A stretch of DNA of 21,659 nt from a virus. Taxonomy: Duplodnaviria; Heunggongvirae; Uroviricota; Caudoviricetes. Location: the IMG/VR virus record IMGVR_UViG_2541047437_000015; one strand, 5' to 3'. Of this stretch, positions 1 to 5,679 are shown piece after piece; the first letter of the stretch is position 1, and each line of letters opens with the position of its first letter. The translations under genes and the position numbers were made by a program. Below the pieces are notes generated by a model, which did no database searches, was not told the origin of the DNA, and saw only the letters and a list, made by a program, of their open reading frames with translations.

Positions 1-750
1 TAATCGTGACGTTGTTGAGCGTCCCGGAGTTCGCATTCACGTTACCGCTGATATCGGCATTTTTCGCCGTCAGCCGCCCGTCCGGTGTCAGGGAAAATGC
101 CGGAGGATTACCGCCGCTGGTAATGGTGGGAGCCGTCAGATATTTCAGGAACACTTCATTCATGAATATCTGATCGCCCTGACCAACAAACATCGGCTTT
201 GTGTTGCCATTCGCAGGATTAATCATCGCAATCCTGTCTGCTGCCAGCAGCACCTGACTCTGCATGCCGTCGGGGGTGTTCTCAATACCGGCACCGATAC
301 CCGCAATATAAAGGCGTCCGTCCTGCATCTGCTGCAGCTTCACTGCCCACATGCTGTTCAGGTTATTATTTGTATCAACCTGAACCTTCTGTATCTGCTG
401 GATCGCTGCACTCTGGTCTTCCAGTTTCTTATTGACGGTCTGTGTTATTTCATTGCTGACATCCGTTATGGACGTCCTGATTTCAGTCAGGTCAGGCGCA
501 AGCTGACCGTTATCAATCTGAGTCCACAACTCCTGAGCCAGATGGGTTTTCCCTATCTCTCCTTTGAAAAAATCCAGATAGCCTGATGCATCATCACTCG
601 GCTGACCGACAGCCTCCACAAATGCCGATTTGCCAACGGTGTTCACACTGCGGATATAAAAGTAATAATCATGGCCCGGTTTGATATTGATACTGGCAGC
701 TATCCAGTACAGCGCCGAGCCAAGATAGCGGGTATAGCGCGGCGATTTTT
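1..750 (-). pseudogene. Fragment of a lambdoid host-specificity / tail-tip protein J-like gene, runs off the window start; upstream part replaced by the Mu-like prophage end (boundary approximate, 730-775)
   Basis: Not in the ORF track because its stop lies outside the window. My own minus-strand translation reads ...[53 protein letters not shown]...[31 protein letters not shown]...[41 protein letters not shown]..., which I recognise as the C-terminal third of lambda-family J proteins. No plausible start or N-terminal ~800 aa is present. Confidence 0.55.
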
Positions 751-860
751 TTGATACCGATTTGCATTTCATTTGATACCGCTGAAAAACGCCGATACGC
801 AACTTATTTGATACTAAATCGGCGCTTTTCTTTTGAGTTTTAGAATGAGTTTTTAAGCGC
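751..860. repeat. Putative prophage right-end region (transposase-binding terminal repeats); three direct copies of TTTGATAC(C/T) at 751, 773 and 808 and a GAAAAACGC motif at 784
   Basis: Lies between the mom stop (861) and the J-like fragment. The stretch from 774, TGATACCGCTGAAAAACGCC, loosely resembles the Mu R-end terminus TGAAGCGGCGCACGAAAAACGCG as I remember it; the exact terminus is not determined. Confidence 0.4.
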
Positions 861-1598
861 TCATTCACTCTCTTTCAAACCAGTTTTAACTGTTTGTGGT
901 TTTGGGTAAGGCTGGACTTTGAATAGCTTTGTGTTGAGGCGTTTTCTGGCCCTCTTGTTCAGAAACCGGATGTAACGAAACTGTCGGAACTTATGAACAC
1001 TGGCTCTGTCAATATTAGCCCTCAGATGTTCACCTCGTTGTCCGCCTCGTTTAATGGCATTCCTGCAAATCTCGTGATACCACTCGCCATCAAGTTCATA
1101 GAATATTGATTCATGGCTGCCTACATAATCAAAATTGCTTGCCTGATACACGACACCAAGACAGCCACAACGCTCATCTGCAAACGACTGAACCCACTGT
1201 ACCTGCGGATAAAGCTGCCTGATTAGCTTGAGCGCGTAACTGATTGCCCTTGATTCGGAGTTTCTCGGCATACAGTCATGCAGCCATAGCCGGTTAAGCT
1301 CCATATATTCTCGGTTCTGCGTACCCGTTACGACGCGTGCACCACTGTTTGGGTTAAGGGCGTAACCCCATTGCATTACGCCAACAAGTTCCCGTTCTGA
1401 AAATATGCCCAGATGAAGGTAGGAGTTATTTACGAAACGGTGGCTGTAATGTTTATTGACGATGACCAGTCTGGCCAGCCAGCAACTTATTGTCTCAACC
1501 CGCAACTCACGGGAGCCATAACCAACGATATTGTCGTTATAGCGAATAAGTTCAGGCGTGCTGATGATTCGGGATGTGACTTGCTTTCTGTTCCCCAC
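861..1598 (-). CDS. mom: DNA modification protein Mom-like (adenine modification, anti-restriction)
   Basis: 245-aa ORF with GTG start at 1598 and AAGGAAA 9 nt upstream. It sits immediately downstream of and overlapping com and is the last gene before the prophage end, exactly as mom does in Mu. Function is assigned by synteny, not by a motif I can point to. Confidence 0.75.
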
Positions 1599-1752
1599 GA
1601 CAGGATTTCCTTGTGTATGTGGGGTGCTCTGTGGCGCTCGGAGATGTGATTTGATTGAGGGTTTTACAGCGCGGACATTTTACTTCCAGATAACTGAAAC
1701 TGGCCCGTGCCAGTAGCTTATTGCAGTGTCGGCACCGTATGTTTCGATACAT
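1552..1752 (-). CDS. com: Com-like zinc-finger translational activator of mom
   Basis: 66-aa ORF from ATG 1752 (GGAGG 11 nt upstream). [30 protein letters not shown] is a C-x2-C...C-x2-C finger closely resembling Mu Com. The track's 81-aa version starts at an upstream TTG and is probably over-extended. The 3' end overlaps the mom start by 46 nt. Confidence 0.8.
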
Positions 1753-1945
1753 GACCGCATAACCTCCTGCTTTGTTGTTGATGCCTTTCTCATGCAATCG
1801 ATCGACAAAAACGATCGATTCGATTTGTTTAATTGATACAACAAATAGATTGAAAAGTCATCAACAATGATTCAGGGAGGTGATTATTTACTTAAAGAAA
1901 ACGAAGAGTTAGGTGGTGAAAACGATCATAAAATGATCATTTTAT
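1753..1945 (-). promoter_or_regulatory. com-mom upstream regulatory region with four GATC (Dam) sites: 1800, 1813, and the palindrome GATCATAAAATGATC at 1924-1938
   Basis: GATC positions read directly from the sequence. In Mu the mom promoter is controlled by Dam methylation of clustered GATC sites (OxyR binding) and activated by C. No promoter hexamers are assigned with confidence. Confidence 0.5.
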
Positions 1946-2025
1946 TGACTTTTTATACAGTGAAGGTAGGATCACGCGTATATGTAGTATGTTTCAAATC
2001 AACAGGATACTACATAAAAGTGAAA

Positions 2026-2051
2026 CCCAGCATAGCTGGAACTATGCTGGG
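2026..2051. other. Perfect 10-bp stem-loop (CCCAGCATAG-ctggaa-CTATGCTGGG) in an AT-rich intergenic region
   Basis: Inverted repeat read directly; no U-tract follows on either strand, so it is not a canonical intrinsic terminator. Confidence 0.5.
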
Positions 2052-2163
2052 TCAATCTGTAAAAACTTGCATCAATGCTTTACTTCGAGCTCGTGGCGTA
2101 TCCTATGATATTCCCCGGTCTCCTGTAAAGCAGAGATGCATAAAAAGGAGATCTTTATCATGG

Positions 2164-2331
2164 ATGAAAGAGCCTGTTTGCCCTGCCTGTAAGACTCCCT
2201 TACAGCTCATCTATCGCCGTTCTCGATCTCAAAATGGCAAGACATACAAACCCAAAAATGCTTCCTGTTTCAGGATGCTGATATGTCCTGCCTGTTCTCC
2301 CAGGAGGGAAAATACACAAAACGTGCATTAA
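2164..2331 (+). CDS. Candidate small zinc-ribbon protein (55 aa, CPAC...x24...CPAC)
   Basis: C-terminal part of track ORF 1867..2331. ATG at 2164 preceded by AAGGAG at 2145-2150 (13-nt spacing, rather long). Two CPAC motifs 24 residues apart. It is on the opposite strand to every other gene here, so it may be spurious. Confidence 0.3.
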   Translation: MKEPVCPACKTPLQLIYRRSRSQNGKTYKPKNASCFRMLICPACSPRRENTQNVH

Positions 2332-2340
2332 CAAACTCAC

Positions 2341-2360
2341 CCGGCAGGGAAACCTGCCGG
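2341..2360. terminator. GC-rich stem-loop CCGGCAGG-gaaa-CCTGCCGG between convergent ORFs
   Basis: Perfect 8-bp stem with a GAAA tetraloop, located between the minus-strand 81-aa ORF stop (2370) and the plus-strand candidate ORF stop (2331). U-tracts are weak on both strands. Confidence 0.4.
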
Positions 2361-2369
2361 TCGGTATTG

Positions 2370-2615
2370 TTACATCATAGTACCGTCAGTTCCGGGCTGA
2401 ACCGGCTCTGGTTGCTCTACGGGTTGAGGATCATTTTCCGTGCTGTTTTCAGCCGGAGAACGGCCAACCATTCGGGCCAGCACTTCATCAACATATGCGT
2501 CGATTTGTGCCTCAAAATCCTTGCGAACCTGCGCCTTCAGCACGCGGTTCACTTCTTCAGAATAAAGTGCCTGTTTGACAAGCTCTTCAGTAACCGTGCC
2601 TTTAATCTCTGGCAT
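2370..2615 (-). CDS. Hypothetical acidic protein (81 aa), cargo gene
   Basis: ORF with strong RBS AAGGAG 8 nt upstream of ATG 2615. Composition looks protein-like (E/K/V/A-rich N-terminal half, Pro/Glu/Gln-rich acidic tail). No family recognised. Confidence 0.6.
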   Translation of the reverse strand: MPEIKGTVTEELVKQALYSEEVNRVLKAQVRKDFEAQIDAYVDEVLARMVGRSPAENSTENDPQPVEQPEPVQPGTDGTMM

Positions 2616-2650
2616 GAATATTCTCCTTTTGCAGGTATATTGCCCCGTTA

Positions 2651-2833
2651 TCAGAGCGGGGTCGGGTCGTTTGGGGATGACGGTGCCTGTGCTGTTTTAC
2701 TGAGTTTTTCAGCTGCCGCATCATCAATTTTACGGCGAATATAATTTCTGATGACCTTATAACCACCGCTCACCAGATATAACGCACTGACCACAGCGCA
2801 GAAATAAAGCAGCATTGTATGAACGAATGTCAT
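2651..2833 (-). CDS. Hypothetical small membrane protein (60 aa; one predicted N-terminal transmembrane helix followed by a basic segment)
   Basis: ORF with TAAGG-type RBS about 7 nt upstream of ATG 2833. Residues 4-22 (VHTMLLYFCAVVSALYLVS) are hydrophobic, followed by a KVIRNYIRRK basic stretch. Confidence 0.55.
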   Translation of the reverse strand: MTFVHTMLLYFCAVVSALYLVSGGYKVIRNYIRRKIDDAAAEKLSKTAQAPSSPNDPTPL

Positions 2834-2946
2834 ATAACCTTACCTTTGATATTGACTACATAATTCGTTATCGGGTAAAAACATCGAAGCGACTGATAAC
2901 CACTCCTTCGGGAGTATTTTTATTTTCCTTTATGGGTTAGGTAGCT

Positions 2947-2987
2947 CCCGCCAGCCATATCATGACCGGCGGGATTTTTTTATTCTG
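2947..2987 (+). terminator. Plus-strand-oriented intrinsic-terminator-like hairpin (CCCGCC...GGCGGG followed by ATTTTTTTATT), directly abutting the esterase stop codon
   Basis: 6-bp GC stem with a ~15-nt loop and a T7 run on the plus strand. On the minus strand, where the neighbouring genes lie, the A-run precedes the hairpin, so it would not act as a canonical terminator for them. Confidence 0.4.
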
Positions 2988-5019
2988 TTACCGCTTTTTT
3001 CACTTCCACCACAATGCTGTCAATCAGCACCGGGTAAGTTGCATTTTTTGTGATATCCGTTACGCGGAGTTTGTCCACCGGGAAAGTTCCTACTGGTGAC
3101 TGCGTCAGGGTAAACGCGGCACCATCCTGACCATCAATAACCGGAATAACCTGAAGGCTGTTATTTCCTGCAAAACGGAAGGCCAGCGTATGCCATTCAT
3201 TATCAAATGCACCAAAGGTTCCCAGTTTCTGGTTATTTGTTGCCACTTTTGCATTGTGGTACATCACATTCAGGTCTTTTGCGTCTGTCTGGATGTAGAA
3301 CGATGCCAGCAGATTATTCCCTGCATCCCCTGTCAGGGTGACACCCTGCGGCAGAGAGGAAACCGGCCAGTAAAGCCCCATGACATACTGGTTTGCCACC
3401 AGGTCGCCAGGTACTTTAAAACGACAACTGATTAAACCACCATTTTTCAGCAGTTCAGCACCAGTACCGGCATCATGATCCAGATACCAAGATGATTTAC
3501 CTGTTTCCTTGGTCAGTTTCATTGCCTTACCACCTGTGCCTCCTGCATCACTGATAATTTCAGCTTTACCGCCAGCCGGCTCCCAGCCCTGGGCTTTCAG
3601 ATTTCCTTCTGACTCACTGACACGATAAGACAGCAGTGTTGTGGTTACTGCTTCAGTTTCTGAAGGTGACGGCACTGGTGCTTCAGTTTCAGAAGATGGA
3701 ACATCGGCTTTTACTGTGGTTCGCCCCGCATGAGTCAGAACTGCCGTGGCCAGACGGTCGGAAATAATCCCACGACGTGCCCATGAACTGAAATGGCTGG
3801 CCCGGTCCGCAGATGTCCAGGTGGCGGCACTGTTACGCCACGTTGAGCCGTAATAACCAATGGATTCAATATCCGGGTCTTCTGCCGGATTGTTGGTGGG
3901 TACATTCGCGTCATTTTCATCTGTCATTAATGGAACGAAATGAATGTTTTTATCTGTTTTGTTTTTGTAGCCGCCATAGATTGCCTGGTATGCCGGTTCA
4001 TTTTTCTGTTTCCAGAAATACGTGGTATCGCCACAAATCCACGGAACGCCAGCAGCACTGCCACCGGTACACTGTTCCGCCTGTTCAGCCAGGTCTGCGC
4101 GGAATTTTTCCACCATCGCCAGAAACAGCGCGGAATGCTCCGTCGGCTTCGCATCAATATCAAACTCGCCCTGCATCCACACCACAGCAAGCAGGCGGTT
4201 TTTCGGGTTCTTCGCCAGTGCCGCTTTTGTCCGGCTGATTAAGTCCTTATACAGCGGCTTATCCACACCCCAGCGGGCTGAGTCCTCTGAAGCACCCGTG
4301 CTGTCACTGTACGTGCCGTCAGCACCCGCCGTGAATGCAGAACCACCACGGCAGCAGGGAACCAGCAGAATCCCCGCATCTGCCGGAATAAACGGCAGCA
4401 GTTTTTTGGCAATGTGAAGCCCCTGACCCACGGTGCCATATTGCCCTTTAGCCACATCCGCTTTCGGGTGATTTTTTCCACTCATATCCTGCACATCATG
4501 CAGACAGTGGTCGGCCAGAATGATGTCGTTATACTGACAGGCTTTACCTCCCGGCGTGACTGTACTGCGACGGGCTAACTGCATAATACGCGGTTCGGGG
4601 CGGTCATATGTCTCCGGCAGTGGCAGACCTTCACCGTAAGCCATACCGTTTGACTGACCAGCAAGAACCACCACGTAATACCAGGAAGGGGAGCTGGAAG
4701 CAGTTTCATTTCCTGACGGACGGGTATGTGTTTCAGCATTATCCCAGTCTGACGGTTCAGCAGTACCGGCAACATCAGCACTTAACGGAATGACCGCACC
4801 AATACCCGCTCCGGTAATTTCCACACTCGGATCACCGGATACTGGCCTTACCCACAGGCAATCCCGTGTATTAAAACTGATGAGACAGTCAGCAAATGTC
4901 ATTCCTCCTTTTGTTTCGGCCGGAGGAAAGGGAGCCTCAAGAAATGCCGCTGTACCACCGGAAACTTTAACAGTAAAGTTTCCGGGCATTGATGATAGTT
5001 GAACCCATTTGGACGTCAT
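2980..5019 (-). CDS. SGNH/SASA-family esterase, putatively a sialate O-acetylesterase-like (NanS-p-like) protein, with a C-terminal lectin/carbohydrate-binding-like domain
   Basis: 679-aa ORF. VVVLAGQSNGMAYGE contains the GQSN nucleophile motif typical of SASA/SGNH esterases. A Ser/Thr/Glu/Pro linker (SETEAPVPSPSETEA) precedes a ~200-aa beta-rich C-terminal domain. This architecture resembles the prophage-borne NanS-p esterases of E. coli. Confidence 0.6.
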   Translation of the reverse strand: MTSKWVQLSSMPGNFTVKVSGGTAAFLEAPFPPAETKGGMTFADCLISFNTRDCLWVRPVSGDPSVEITGAGIGAVIPLSADVAGTAEPSDWDNAETHTRPSGNETASSSPSWYYVVVLAGQSNGMAYGEGLPLPETYDRPEPRIMQLARRSTVTPGGKACQYNDIILADHCLHDVQDMSGKNHPKADVAKGQYGTVGQGLHIAKKLLPFIPADAGILLVPCCRGGSAFTAGADGTYSDSTGASEDSARWGVDKPLYKDLISRTKAALAKNPKNRLLAVVWMQGEFDIDAKPTEHSALFLAMVEKFRADLAEQAEQCTGGSAAGVPWICGDTTYFWKQKNEPAYQAIYGGYKNKTDKNIHFVPLMTDENDANVPTNNPAEDPDIESIGYYGSTWRNSAATWTSADRASHFSSWARRGIISDRLATAVLTHAGRTTVKADVPSSETEAPVPSPSETEAVTTTLLSYRVSESEGNLKAQGWEPAGGKAEIISDAGGTGGKAMKLTKETGKSSWYLDHDAGTGAELLKNGGLISCRFKVPGDLVANQYVMGLYWPVSSLPQGVTLTGDAGNNLLASFYIQTDAKDLNVMYHNAKVATNNQKLGTFGAFDNEWHTLAFRFAGNNSLQVIPVIDGQDGAAFTLTQSPVGTFPVDKLRVTDITKNATYPVLIDSIVVEVKKAVTE

Positions 5020-5118: not shown

Positions 5119-5679
5119 TTATTTTTCCGAAACGCTCGCAGGATAATAACGATAAAGGGTTGAAAGGCCGATATCAAAAATAAGTGCCACCTGTCTTCGA
5201 CTGACACCCCCGGCCAGTAAACGCCCGACCTGCTCGTATTGTTCCTGCGTGAGACGACGGGGTCTGCCGCCGGTTCGTCCCCTTTCACGGGCAGCTGCAA
5301 GACCAGCCCGTGTCCGTTCGACAATTAATTCACGCTCCATTTCTGCCAGCGCACCCATTATGTGAAAAAAGAAGCGCCCCATGGGGGTTGACGTATCAAT
5401 GTTGTCAGTAAGACTACGAAAATTTATCCCCTGTTGCTGTAATTCATCTGTCAGCGCAACAAGGTGGCGCATACTGCGCCCCAGCCTGTCCAGTTTCCAG
5501 ACCATCAGTGTGTCACCGGGTTTTAGTTTCTTCAGTGCCCGCTTCAGTCCCGGCCGCTGTGTCGTTTTACCACTCATTTTATCTTCAAAAATCTGCTCAC
5601 ATCCTGCACATTCCAGCGCATTTCTTTGTAAACCTGTGTTCTGGTCATTTGTTGATACGCGTATATAGCCAATCAGCAT
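5119..5679 (-). CDS. gin: Gin/Pin/Cin/Hin-family serine DNA invertase
   Basis: 186-aa ORF. MLIGYIRVSTNDQN...VWKLDRLGRSM...FRSLTDNIDTSTPMGRFFFHIMGALAEMERELIVERT is near-identical in pattern to Mu Gin, with the catalytic Ser in the RVST motif. RBS AAGGAAGG 8 nt upstream. Lies adjacent to a gix-like site. Confidence 0.9.
   Translation of the reverse strand: MLIGYIRVSTNDQNTGLQRNALECAGCEQIFEDKMSGKTTQRPGLKRALKKLKPGDTLMVWKLDRLGRSMRHLVALTDELQQQGINFRSLTDNIDTSTPMGRFFFHIMGALAEMERELIVERTRAGLAAARERGRTGGRPRRLTQEQYEQVGRLLAGGVSRRQVALIFDIGLSTLYRYYPASVSEK

What the first reader, a model, noticed from the sequence alone, without database searches (positions are those of the whole stretch)
1795..1940. Cluster of four GATC sites, including the palindrome GATCATAAAATGATC, upstream of com-mom
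GATC at 1800, 1813, 1924 and 1935 within ~190 bp upstream of the com start. In Mu, mom transcription is repressed by OxyR binding to unmethylated GATC sites and activated by C, so this is consistent with conserved Dam-dependent epigenetic control. The arrangement (two pairs, one a perfect 15-bp palindrome) may differ from Mu's three-site layout.
Basis: partly seen in the sequence, partly recalled or inferred. Interest (0 to 1): 0.5.

Follow-up and report, generated by a model that had tools for sequence, protein, structure and literature searches.

The report
Dam/OxyR-type operator upstream of com-mom
Two of the four GATC sites upstream of com-mom in this Mu-like E. coli prophage form a methylation-sensitive OxyR-type operator like those of phage Mu mom and E. 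coli agn43, placed much closer to the gene than in Mu, while the other two lie in a separate palindrome beside a divergent promoter.

Summary
They are not one unit.

**Proximal pair (1800, 1813).** It lies in AATCGATCG-N7-CGATCGATT. A GATC pair 13 bp apart occurs in nearly all enterobacterial com-mom loci examined. It matches Mu GATC2/GATC3, 21 of 25 bases of the agn43 OxyR/Dam operator core, and each gtr(P22) OxyR half-site. The four best OxyR-consensus matches in the window all fall at 1801-1868. One of them is in the same register as the 37-mer spanning Mu's three GATC sites. Mu's third GATC is missing.

**Geometry.** The operator sits 27 bp closer to com than in Mu. There is no room for Mu's C site and Pmom between operator and gene. 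It must therefore overlap the promoter or lie in the leader, as in agn43 and gtr.

**Distal pair (1924, 1935).** Spacing is 11 bp and there is no OxyR match. Relatives that keep com and the proximal module lack it. It sits in a perfect 18-bp palindrome (1928-1945), not the claimed 15-mer, which abuts the -35 of a conserved divergent promoter.

**Verdict.** The Dam/OxyR idea is supported for one pair only, and by sequence alone. This is a new geometric variant of a known mechanism, of modest interest.

The parts
1796..1820 (-). Proximal GATC pair (1800-1803, 1813-1816) inside the perfect inverted repeat AATCGATCG-N7-CGATCGATT. This is OxyR-type half-site II (ATCGTTTTTGTCGAT on the com strand, 7/10 to ATAGnTnnnAnCTAT).
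   Evidence: The 13-bp GATC spacing is shared with Mu GATC2/3, agn43 GATC-II/III and both gtr(P22) pairs. The core is 21/25 identical to agn43. The GATC columns are 100% conserved in 17 diverged loci, against 61% for the other columns.
1801..1837 (-). 37-bp OxyR-consensus match (13/20) made of two half-sites. The GATC-containing one is at 1801-1815 and a GATC-free one (ATCAATTAAACAAAT on the com strand) is at 1823-1837. It spans -85 to -49 from the com ATG.
   Evidence: It is in the same register as the best match in the Mu locus, L001 2157-2193 (13/20), which spans Mu's three GATC sites. Relatives L064, L065 and L090 score 14-15/20 and agn43 scores 14/20 in that register.
1832..1868 (-). Second, GATC-free OxyR-consensus match (14/20, the best in the window). 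It overlaps the first by 6 bp in a register shifted by 9 bp. The block is conserved among close relatives.
   Evidence: Only 1 of 33 columns at 1838-1870 varies. This could instead reflect phased A/T-rich DNA.
1753..1795 (-). Short interval between operator and com ATG (43 nt after GATCGATT). It holds the SD AGGAGG (1768-1763) and only weak -10 candidates, TGAGAA (1792-1787) and CATCAA (1783-1778). It has no Mu-type C site or Pmom.
   Evidence: Relatives have TGnTATCAT or TATACT 7 nt after the last GATC, or TATCAT at the CATCAA position.
1552..1752 (-). com (66 aa zinc-ribbon translational activator homologue).
861..1598 (-). mom (245 aa), overlapping the com 3' end as in Mu.
1919..1945 (.). 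Distal GATC pair (1924-1927, 1935-1938; 11-bp spacing). It lies in the 11-bp direct repeats AAAAYGATCAT and the perfect 18-bp palindrome ATAAAATGATCATTTTAT (1928-1945). It is a conserved island and a probable protein-binding site of unknown partner.
   Evidence: 0 of 25 columns vary, against 20-22% in both flanks, among 15 close relatives. It is unique in the whole prophage. It has no OxyR match.
1945..1972 (+). Divergent sigma-70 promoter P(+): -35 TTGACT (1945-1950), 16-bp spacer, -10 TAGGAT (1967-1972, overlapping GATC 1970). The predicted start is near 1980.
   Evidence: It is conserved as TTGACT-16-TAAGAT in L056/L057 and TTGACG-16-TATAAT in L060/L063, although the spacers have diverged.
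1888..1931 (-). Look-alike of the Mu C site plus Pmom: TTAT-N6-TTTC, ACCACC (1917-1912), 17 nt, TAAGTA (1894-1889). This is a rival candidate for the com-mom promoter.
   Evidence: a single match in the window, 0.02 expected, for a pattern designed after seeing both sequences. 11 of 50 columns vary among close relatives, including the ACCACC and TAAG bases. It is absent in L043, L044 and L055.
1976..2331 (+). Transcript predicted from P(+). It comprises a structured leader (hairpins 1981-2016, 2024-2053 and about 2066-2140) followed by a 55-aa CPAC...CPAC zinc-ribbon ORF (ATG 2164, stop 2331).

Best explanation
The window is the right end of an Sp18-like Mu-type prophage of E. coli. The four GATC sites belong to two separate elements.

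**1. Proximal pair (1800, 1813).** This is the methylatable half of an OxyR-type operator for com-mom (1801-1837). It consists of one 15-bp half-site, G-ATCG-N7-CGAT-C, carrying both GATCs, plus a GATC-free half-site 22 bp upstream. That is the composition of a gtr(P22) OxyR(AB) or OxyR(BC) site.

*Inferred mechanism.* When the two GATCs are unmethylated or hemimethylated (dam- host, or just after replication), reduced OxyR binds and blocks com-mom transcription. Full Dam methylation excludes OxyR and allows expression, which still needs the prophage's C-family late activator and Com.

*Difference from Mu.* The third GATC is lost, and the operator lies 27 bp closer to com (last GATC at -51 instead of -78). 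It must therefore overlap the core promoter or lie just downstream of the start site, as in gtr and agn43. It cannot sit upstream of a C site as in Mu. Repression would be by direct occlusion or roadblock.

**2. Distal pair (1924, 1935).** This pair is not part of that operator. It sits in a conserved 18-bp perfect palindrome immediately upstream of the -35 of a conserved divergent promoter. That promoter drives a structured leader and a small zinc-ribbon ORF. The palindrome is most likely a binding site for an unidentified regulator of that promoter, or of both divergent promoters, possibly Dam-sensitive.

**What is shown and what is inferred.**
- Shown: sequence anatomy, conservation and consensus matches.
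- Inferred: OxyR binding, methylation sensitivity, promoter position and the role of the palindrome.
For: **Identity of the locus.**
- com and mom are homologous to Mu and overlap as in Mu.
- A 100% identical prophage in NZ_CP074811 carries a Mor/C-family gene directly upstream of the lysozyme gene. Its product is 39% identical to Mu C.

**Proximal pair.**
- The arms are the same as in Mu (AATCGATC...GATCGATT), with the same 13-bp spacing.
- A 13-bp pair, usually with a third GATC 18, 19 or 31 bp upstream, is present in nearly all enterobacterial com-mom loci retrieved. These are 21 genome loci and 80 viral-contig loci. They fall into two positional classes, with the last GATC at -76 to -83 (Mu class) or -50 to -57 (this class).
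- The GATC2 and GATC3 columns are 100% conserved in 17 diverged representatives, against 61% elsewhere.
- The four best matches to the OxyR consensus in all 21.6 kb lie at 1801-1868. None of 2000 local shuffles gave four matches of at least 13.
- The 1801-1837 match is in the same register as the best match in the Mu locus, which spans Mu's three GATC sites, and as agn43.
- The core is 21/25 identical to agn43 GATC-II/III.
- Both gtr(P22) OxyR half-sites are also GATC-N9-GATC pairs.
- Methylation of such a pair in only one half-site abolishes OxyR binding at gtr (PMC2909390).

**Geometry.** 43 nt separate GATCGATT from the com ATG, against 70 nt in Mu.

**Distal pair.**
- 0 of 25 columns vary, against 20-22% in the flanks.
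- The palindrome is the longest in the window.
- P(+) is conserved in three diverged groups, and a GATC lies 6-7 bp upstream of its -35 in the window's group and in L056/L057.
- It is absent from L043, the L044 group (9 loci) and L055, which keep com and the proximal module.
Against: - There is no experimental datum for this prophage, and no paper on Sp18 mom regulation was found.
- The OxyR consensus match is modest (13/20). The region is A+T-rich with roughly 11-bp phasing, so several overlapping registers score similarly. P(max at least 13) in local shuffles is 0.11.
- Only two GATCs remain, against three in Mu and agn43.
- The com-mom promoter is not located. No site on the com strand in 1600-2700, other than one near 2100-2129, reaches 9/12 to the sigma-70 consensus.
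- The -10-like hexamer that relatives carry 7 nt after the last GATC is degenerate here (TGAGAA), so the operon may be poorly expressed or use an upstream promoter.
- The palindrome has no identified binding protein, is not palindromic in L056/L057, and is absent in L060/L063.
- The P(+) start site is predicted, not mapped.
Confidence: 0.55

Rival explanations
1. One reading: all four GATCs form one Dam/OxyR control region upstream of Pmom. This would be a two-pair layout replacing Mu's three sites, functionally like the gtr(P22) two-pair switch.
For: Two pairs of GATC sites upstream of one operon is exactly the gtr architecture (PMC2909390; sequence). Both pairs are conserved islands among close relatives.
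Against: - The distal pair is 11 bp apart, not 13, so it cannot form the G-ATCG-N7-CGAT-C half-site.
- It has no OxyR half-site of at least 7/10 and no full-site match of at least 11/20 at standard spacing.
- The pairs are 111-135 bp apart, against 64 bp in gtr, which is too far for one OxyR tetramer.
- The distal pair is missing in L043, the L044 group and L055, which retain com and the proximal module. L056/L057 keep only one of the two sites.
Confidence: 0.07
2. The real com-mom promoter is the Mu-Pmom look-alike at 1931-1888. This comprises the C-site-like TTAT-N6-TTTC, ACCACC, 17 nt, then TAAGTA, with a start near 1882. The GATC at 1935 would then occupy the position of Mu GATC3 (-57 to -54). 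The GATC at 1924 would lie inside the C site. The proximal OxyR-type site would lie at about +45 to +81 of a 130-nt leader, acting as a roadblock.
For: - The skeleton TTAT-N10-11-CCAC-N17-21-TAAG occurs once in the window, on the com strand, upstream of com, with 0.02 expected.
- The spacing from TTAT to the -10 is within 1 nt of Mu.
- L009, a Mu-class locus, has TTTAAGTAAA at its Pmom position.
- The -10 that relatives carry next to the operator is degenerate here.
- agn43 shows that an OxyR operator downstream of the start can repress (annotation of IsrC starting at GATC-I).
Against: - The pattern was designed after seeing both sequences.
- Local alignment to Mu is not significant.
- 1871-1920 is as variable as neutral flanks (11 of 50 columns). 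Substitutions fall in ACCACC (three variants), in TAAG (TTAG in L037/L038) and in the spacer length.
- The element is absent in L043, L044 and L055.
- No TTAT-N6-ATAA occurs anywhere in the prophage, and the palindrome is unique, so it is not a box shared with other late promoters.
- The conserved Plys box of this phage family (TATTCCGCAAAkCCTGCC) does not resemble it.
Confidence: 0.15
3. The conserved proximal GATC inverted repeat is bound by something other than OxyR. Candidates are the phage C-family activator (whose site would have to overlap here, since there is no room elsewhere) or SeqA/Dam-related sequestration. OxyR would play no part.
For: - There is no space for a separate activator site between the operator and com.
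- A/T-rich boxes resembling the right half of Mu's C box (ATAAATCC, ATAACCA, AACAAATC) lie just upstream of GATC2 in this class.
- The OxyR consensus match is only 13/20.
Against: The same GATC-N9-GATC core is the experimentally established OxyR half-site in agn43 and gtr, which have no C protein. In Mu the homologous sites are distinct from the C site (PMC3378877).
Confidence: 0.1
4. The distal pair and its palindrome have no function. They would be a chance feature of A+T-rich, recently diverged DNA.
For: - A palindrome of at least 18 bp arises in about 10% of whole-window shuffles.
- The relatives that carry it are 79-99% identical overall, so invariance is weak evidence.
- It is not palindromic in L056/L057 and is absent in L060/L063.
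Against: 0 of 25 variable columns between flanks at 20-22% gives (0.79)^25, about 0.003. Local shuffles give such a palindrome in 0.26% of cases. It lies exactly against the -35 of a conserved promoter.
Confidence: 0.15

Closest known systems
Phage Mu mom regulatory region (three GATC sites bound by OxyR when unmethylated; C-activated Pmom; Com translational control)
   Same: - An overlapping com-mom operon at the prophage right end.
- A GATC pair 13 bp apart with identical arms (AATCGATC...GATCGATT).
- An OxyR-consensus match of equal score (13/20) in the same register as the Mu 37-mer spanning its three GATC sites.
- A C-family activator encoded next to lys.
   Different: - There are only two GATCs, because the site 18 bp upstream is lost.
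- The operator lies 27 bp closer to com (last GATC at -51 against -78).
- Mu's TTAT-N6-ATAA C site, ACCACA, T6 run and TAAGAT are absent between operator and com.
- Com is 47% and C is 39% identical to their Mu counterparts.
- About 3.3 kb of extra genes lie between gin and com.
E. coli agn43 (flu) Dam/OxyR phase-variation operator
   Same: The core ATCGATCG-N-CGATCGAT is 21/25 identical. The 13-bp GATC-II/III spacing is the same. The OxyR-consensus register is the same (14/20 for agn43). The operator is close to or downstream of the start site rather than far upstream.
   Different: agn43 has a third GATC 19 bp upstream and needs no phage activator. Phase variation is unknown here. The start site here is unmapped.
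Salmonella/P22 gtr Dam/OxyR switch (two GATC pairs in OxyR half-sites A and C)
   Same: Each gtr pair is a GATC-N9-GATC inside one OxyR half-site, as is the proximal pair here. A gtr binding site (AB or BC) has one GATC-bearing and one GATC-free half-site, as at 1801-1837. If the -10 is CATCAA (1783-1778), the pair would lie at about -32 and -45, close to gtr GATC4 and GATC3 (-33 and -46).
   Different: The second pair here has 11-bp spacing and no half-site match. It is 111-135 bp away instead of 64 bp, and it is not co-conserved. There is no evidence of alternative OxyR sites locked by methylation patterns.

Membership tests
Mu-type mom control region (Dam/OxyR + C + Com) | Overlapping com-mom operon encoding Com zinc-ribbon and Mom proteins | tested here: met
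   Com matches Pfam PF10122 (E=1.9e-12) and is 47% identical to Mu Com. Mom matches PF25680 (E=4e-77) and is 79% identical to Mu Mom. The ORFs overlap at 1552-1598.
Mu-type mom control region (Dam/OxyR + C + Com) | GATC pair 13 bp apart in CGATCG...GATCGAT context upstream of com (Mu GATC2/GATC3) | tested here: met
   1800 and 1813 have the same arms and spacing as Mu L001 2178 and 2191. The pair is invariant in 17 diverged loci.
Mu-type mom control region (Dam/OxyR + C + Com) | Third GATC 18 bp upstream of the pair (Mu GATC1) | tested here: not met
   The window has AATT at the equivalent position. TATCAAT, 22 bp upstream, may be a decayed site.
Mu-type mom control region (Dam/OxyR + C + Com) | Match to the OxyR tetramer consensus covering the GATC sites | tested here: met
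   1801-1837 scores 13/20, equal to the best match in the Mu locus, the 37-mer 2157-2193 that spans Mu's three GATC sites. The four best scores in the window all lie at 1801-1868. This is a consensus match only.
Mu-type mom control region (Dam/OxyR + C + Com) | Operator lies upstream of a C-binding site (TTAT-N6-ATAA) and of a weak promoter (ACCACA, 19-bp spacer with T6, TAAGAT) that precedes com | tested here: not met
   Only 43 nt lie between GATCGATT and the ATG, against 70 nt in Mu, and none of these elements is there. No TTAT-N6-ATAA occurs in the whole prophage. A look-alike lies upstream of the operator at 1931-1888 but is poorly conserved.
Mu-type mom control region (Dam/OxyR + C + Com) | C (Mor/C family) late activator encoded by the same prophage | tested here: met
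   It is not in the window. In the 100% identical prophage of NZ_CP074811 a 141-aa Mor-family gene precedes the lysozyme gene. Its product is 39% identical to Mu C and matches PHROG 532, late transcriptional activator.
Mu-type mom control region (Dam/OxyR + C + Com) | Expression depends on Dam; OxyR binds only unmethylated or hemimethylated DNA | not testable with these tools
   This needs reporter assays and footprinting. No published data on Sp18 were found.
agn43-type Dam/OxyR operator | Three GATCs (19 + 13 bp) within one OxyR site; core ATCGATCG-N7-CGATCGAT | tested here: inconclusive
   The core is 21/25 identical and the 13-bp pair is present, but the third GATC is absent.
agn43-type Dam/OxyR operator | Operator at or just downstream of the transcription start | not testable with these tools
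   The start site is unmapped. The geometry forces the pair to about -20 to -45, or into the leader.
gtr-type two-pair Dam/OxyR switch | Two GATC pairs, each 13 bp apart and each inside an OxyR half-site, 64 bp apart with a GATC-free half-site between | tested here: not met
   The distal pair has 11-bp spacing and no half-site of at least 7/10. The pairs are 111-135 bp apart. The distal pair is not co-conserved.

The most novel reading that the evidence does not exclude
In this 'short' class of com-mom loci (found in 233 of 5426 complete E. coli genomes and many IMG/VR contigs), the OxyR/Dam operator has been fused to the core promoter. Mom, a toxic DNA-modification function, would then be under an agn43/gtr-style heritable epigenetic ON/OFF switch in lysogens or during infection, rather than the simple Dam check seen in Mu.

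The adjacent GATC-free OxyR-like site (1832-1868) would offer an alternative OxyR position. A second Dam-sensitive palindromic operator (1928-1945) would couple com-mom to a divergent, undescribed structured RNA and zinc-ribbon gene.
Probability: 0.1. Interest if true: 0.6.

Novelty: new variant of a known kind. Interest (0 to 1): 0.35.

Why it matters
Dam/OxyR control of mom is a textbook case of methylation-dependent gene control, known from one phage. The comparison here has four consequences.
- The GATC-N9-GATC OxyR half-site is a conserved, portable module shared by Mu mom, agn43, gtr and a large family of Mu-like prophages in pathogenic E. coli.
- The module occurs in two geometries relative to com. 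In the variant here it must act at the promoter itself.
- This gives a concrete, testable prediction: two specific GATCs and one 37-bp site govern a restriction-evasion function in EHEC prophages.
- It warns against counting nearby GATCs as one regulatory unit.

It does not reveal a new mechanism.

Tried and rejected
- **BLASTN against phages.** The regulatory region finds only mom coding matches in Mu, D108 and SfMu, plus two Stx phages carrying the same Mu-like insert. The control region is too diverged for BLAST.
- **Pairwise alignments with Mu.** MAFFT and Smith-Waterman alignments with the Mu gin-com region are not significant for the operator or Pmom pieces (58/500 and 180/500 shuffles). 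Only an 11-mer, CTGTATAAAAA, shared with the gin 3' end stands out (2/500). The window's own gin 3' end differs, so I did not pursue a 'gin relic'.
- **Rfam.** The scan of 1500-3000 gave nothing meaningful.
- **C-binding site.** No Mu-type TTAT-N6-ATAA exists in the prophage. The palindrome has no second copy. Phylogenetic footprinting of Plys in 29 relatives gave a box (TATTCCGCAAAkCCTGCC, then TTACGCT) that I could not find convincingly upstream of com. The C site remains unidentified.
- **RefSeq's 154-aa ORF (1867-2331).** This ORF would make the distal GATCs coding. I rejected it because it has no family hit and close relatives carry non-triplet indels in its 5' part.
- **Lambdoid origin of the distal segment.** Rejected, because 1760-2360 has no match in lambdoid phages.
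- **Literature.** Searches for Sp18 mom regulation, TSS or methylome data found nothing. The primary Mu papers (PMC401183, PMC147061) are not held.
- **Lrp/pap-type GATC boxes.** GATCaTTTTAT resembles my recollection of the pap box. I considered this only from memory and did not test it. The 102-bp two-box layout is not present.
Full report
**What the window is.**
- Window 728-3000 is 99.9-100% identical to Mu-like prophages of E. coli O157:H7 and other STEC.
- In NZ_CP074811 the same element is a roughly 38.5-kb Mu-type prophage. It has transposase genes, a Mor/C-family activator next to lysozyme, head and tail genes, an invertase, then com and mom at the right end.
- On the minus strand of the window, mom is 861-1598 (79% identical to Mu Mom). 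com is 1552-1752 (47% identical to Mu Com, Pfam Zn_ribbon_Com). The Shine-Dalgarno AGGAGG is at 1768-1763.
- Everything at coordinates above 1752 is therefore upstream of com.

**Checking the observation.**
- GATC is present at 1800, 1813, 1924 and 1935, and also at 1970.
- The cluster is the densest in the window. By counts alone it is unremarkable window-wide: 61% of random placements give four sites this close. It is significant only for the pre-specified location (P about 0.006; composition predicts 0.73 sites in 1753-1990 against 5 seen).
- GATCATAAAATGATC is not a palindrome, because its reverse complement is GATCATTTTATGATC.
- The true palindrome is ATAAAATGATCATTTTAT (1928-1945, 18 bp). 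It is the longest in the window and is found in 0.26% of local shuffles.
- The proximal pair lies in a perfect 9-bp-arm inverted repeat, AATCGATCG-N7-CGATCGATT, at 1796-1820.

**The proximal pair is a conserved Dam/OxyR-type module.**
- Read on the com strand, the window has AATCGATCgtttttgtcGATCGATT. Mu has AATCGATCggtaatacaGATCGATT, which contains GATC2 and GATC3. The arms and the 13-bp spacing are the same.
- I retrieved 21 mom loci from bacterial genomes and 80 com loci from IMG/VR. Nearly all enterobacterial com-mom loci have a GATC pair 13 bp apart, usually with a third GATC 18, 19 or 31 bp upstream.
- In 17 diverged representatives the eight GATC columns are 100% conserved, against 61% for the other columns.
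- I scanned with the OxyR tetramer consensus ATAGnTnnnAnCTAT-N7-ATAGnTnnnAnCTAT. The four best matches in the whole 21.6-kb window (13-14 of 20) all lie in 1801-1868. No local shuffle out of 2000 gave four such matches, although a single match of at least 13 arises in 11%.
- The match at 1801-1837 is in the same register as the best match in the Mu locus (2157-2193, 13/20), which spans Mu's three GATC sites. It is also in the register of the best matches in relatives L064, L065 and L090 (14-15/20).
- I then fetched two experimentally characterised Dam/OxyR operators.
  - The agn43 region of K-12 has GATCs spaced 19 and 13 bp apart. Its core, ATCGATCGTTTATATCGATCGATAA, is 21/25 identical to the window's ATCGATCGTTTTTGTCGATCGATTG. 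Its consensus match is 14/20 in the same register.
  - The P22 gtr region has two pairs, each GATC-N9-GATC, inside OxyR half-sites.
- At gtr a binding site consists of one GATC-bearing and one GATC-free half-site, and methylation of that single pair abolishes OxyR binding (PMC2909390).
- The window's site has this composition. Half-site 1801-1815 holds both GATCs, and half-site 1823-1837 holds none.
- Mu's third site is absent. The equivalent position reads AATT.

**The geometry differs from Mu.**
- The loci fall into two classes. In the Mu class (Mu, L008, L009, L019, L021, L099) the last GATC is 76-83 bp before the com ATG. It is followed by a C-site-like ATTA(T)-N6-7-WTAAYC, a weak -35 and a -10 such as TAAGAT.
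- In the class to which the window belongs (L027-L093, L006) the last GATC is 50-57 bp before the ATG.
- Here only 43 nt separate GATCGATT from the ATG, against 70 nt in Mu. None of Mu's promoter elements is present.
- Two subgroups of this class carry a good -10 hexamer exactly 7 nt after the last GATC (TGnTATCAT in L064, L065 and L090; TATACT in L056-L063). The window has TGAGAA there and CATCAA 9 nt further on, where L037, L041 and L055 have TATCAT.
- A -10-like block also lies about 27 nt upstream of the pair, in the position of the agn43 -10.
- I cannot place the start site. For any candidate the operator overlaps the -35/spacer region or lies in the early transcript.
- That is the geometry of gtr, where GATC4 is at -33. 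It is also that of agn43, where the annotated IsrC/agn43 transcript starts at GATC-I. It is not that of Mu, where the sites are upstream of the C site (PMC3378877).
- A naturally occurring control exists. L094, L097 and L098 have deleted the whole GATC block while keeping the flanks.

**The distal pair is a different element.**
- Its spacing is 11 bp, so it cannot form the 15-bp half-site. No OxyR match is found there.
- It is present only in relatives that are 79-99% identical over the aligned 849-nt com-plus-upstream region.
- Three kinds of relative have 95-96% identical Com and the same proximal module but unrelated DNA further upstream: from -103 in L043 and the L044 group (9 loci), and from -133 in L055. 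L056/L057 retain only the equivalent of GATC 1935.
- In E. coli, 215 of the 233 genomes with the region carry both halves. Some carry only the proximal half.
- The distal element is nevertheless not neutral. Among 15 relatives, 0 of 25 columns vary at 1921-1945, against 20% and 22% in the two flanks.
- The palindrome ends at the first base of TTGACT (1945-1950). Together with TAGGAT (1967-1972) and a 16-bp spacer, this is the only good sigma-70 match on the plus strand of 1600-2700.
- That promoter is conserved as TTGACT-16-TAAGAT in L056/L057 and TTGACG-16-TATAAT in L060/L063, although the spacers have diverged.
- It is followed by conserved hairpins, one of which shows compensatory changes. 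These lead to a small CPAC...CPAC zinc-ribbon ORF that is 44-46% identical at the protein level in L057, L059 and L063.
- With a start near 1980, the palindrome is centred at about -43 of this divergent promoter.
- It has no second copy in the prophage, so it is not a box shared with the other late promoters.

**The Pmom look-alike.**
- On the com strand, 1931-1888 reads TTATgatcgtTTTCACCACC-17 nt-TAAGTA. This mimics Mu's TTATgccccaATAACCACAC-18 nt-TAAGAT to within 1 nt.
- The skeleton pattern occurs once in the window, against 0.02 expected. I designed the pattern after seeing both sequences.
- This stretch is as variable as the flanks (11 of 50 columns). Changes fall in ACCACC, in TAAG and in the spacer length.
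- It is missing in relatives that keep com. I keep it as a rival at about 0.15.

**Conclusion.**
- The arrangement is not 'two pairs instead of three sites'. It is one pair, because the third site is lost, in an operator that has moved 27 bp towards the gene. A separate conserved palindrome belongs to, or is shared with, a divergent promoter.
- All functional statements (OxyR binding, methylation sensitivity, promoter position, partner of the palindrome) are inferences.
- I found no published work on this prophage's mom control.

Noticed in passing
window 1945-2331 (+): A conserved divergent promoter (TTGACT-16-TAGGAT) is followed by a roughly 180-nt structured leader. The hairpins are at 1981-2016, 2024-2053 (with compensatory changes among relatives) and about 2066-2140 (strongly conserved). 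A 55-57 aa CPAC...CPAC zinc-ribbon ORF follows (ATG 2160/2164 to 2331). There is no Rfam, Pfam or NCBIfam match. Some relatives carry two tandem copies of the hairpin-2 module.
   Followed up: partly
window 1867-2331 (+): The 154-aa 'hypothetical protein' annotated by RefSeq (WP_115801860.1) is probably an artefact. Most relatives lack one base near 2166, which makes the small ORF start at ATG 2160. Close relatives also have non-triplet indels in the 5' part.
   Followed up: partly
window 1-732: The prophage right end is at about 728-732. Window 1-725 is 97.8% identical to gpJ (tail tip protein J) of lambdoid prophages, so this copy of the Mu-like phage has transposed into another prophage's tail gene. 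No complete E. coli genome in the collection has this junction.
   Followed up: partly
window 2370-5019 (-): Between the invertase gene (5119-5679) and com lies a block that Mu lacks. It comprises a 679-aa SASA-esterase/DUF6645 protein, DUF1378 and DUF826. These are families typical of the late regions of lambdoid and Stx phages. The block looks like a moron insertion into the Mu gin-com junction.
   Followed up: no
L094, L097, L098 (about -90 to -50 from com ATG): These com-mom loci have precisely lost all three GATC sites, apparently by deletion between the GATCGAT repeats, while keeping the flanking sequence and the TATCAT hexamer. They are natural operator-deletion variants.
   Followed up: no
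window 405-1799: A 1399-bp stretch without any GATC covers all of mom and com. This is the second-longest GATC-free gap in the window but is not significant on its own (P about 0.32).
   Followed up: yes
window 1832-1868: The best OxyR-consensus match of the window (14/20) lies here. It has no GATC and overlaps the GATC-bearing site by 6 bp in a register shifted by 9 bp. L056-L058 have a 15/20 GATC-free match further upstream. This could be a second, methylation-insensitive OxyR position or just phased A/T-rich DNA.
   Followed up: partly
window 1950-1960 (-): CTGTATAAAAA is shared with the 3' end of Mu gin (2 of 500 shuffles reach this score). The window's own gin ends differently. It is possibly a relic of an ancestral gin-com junction.
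   Followed up: partly
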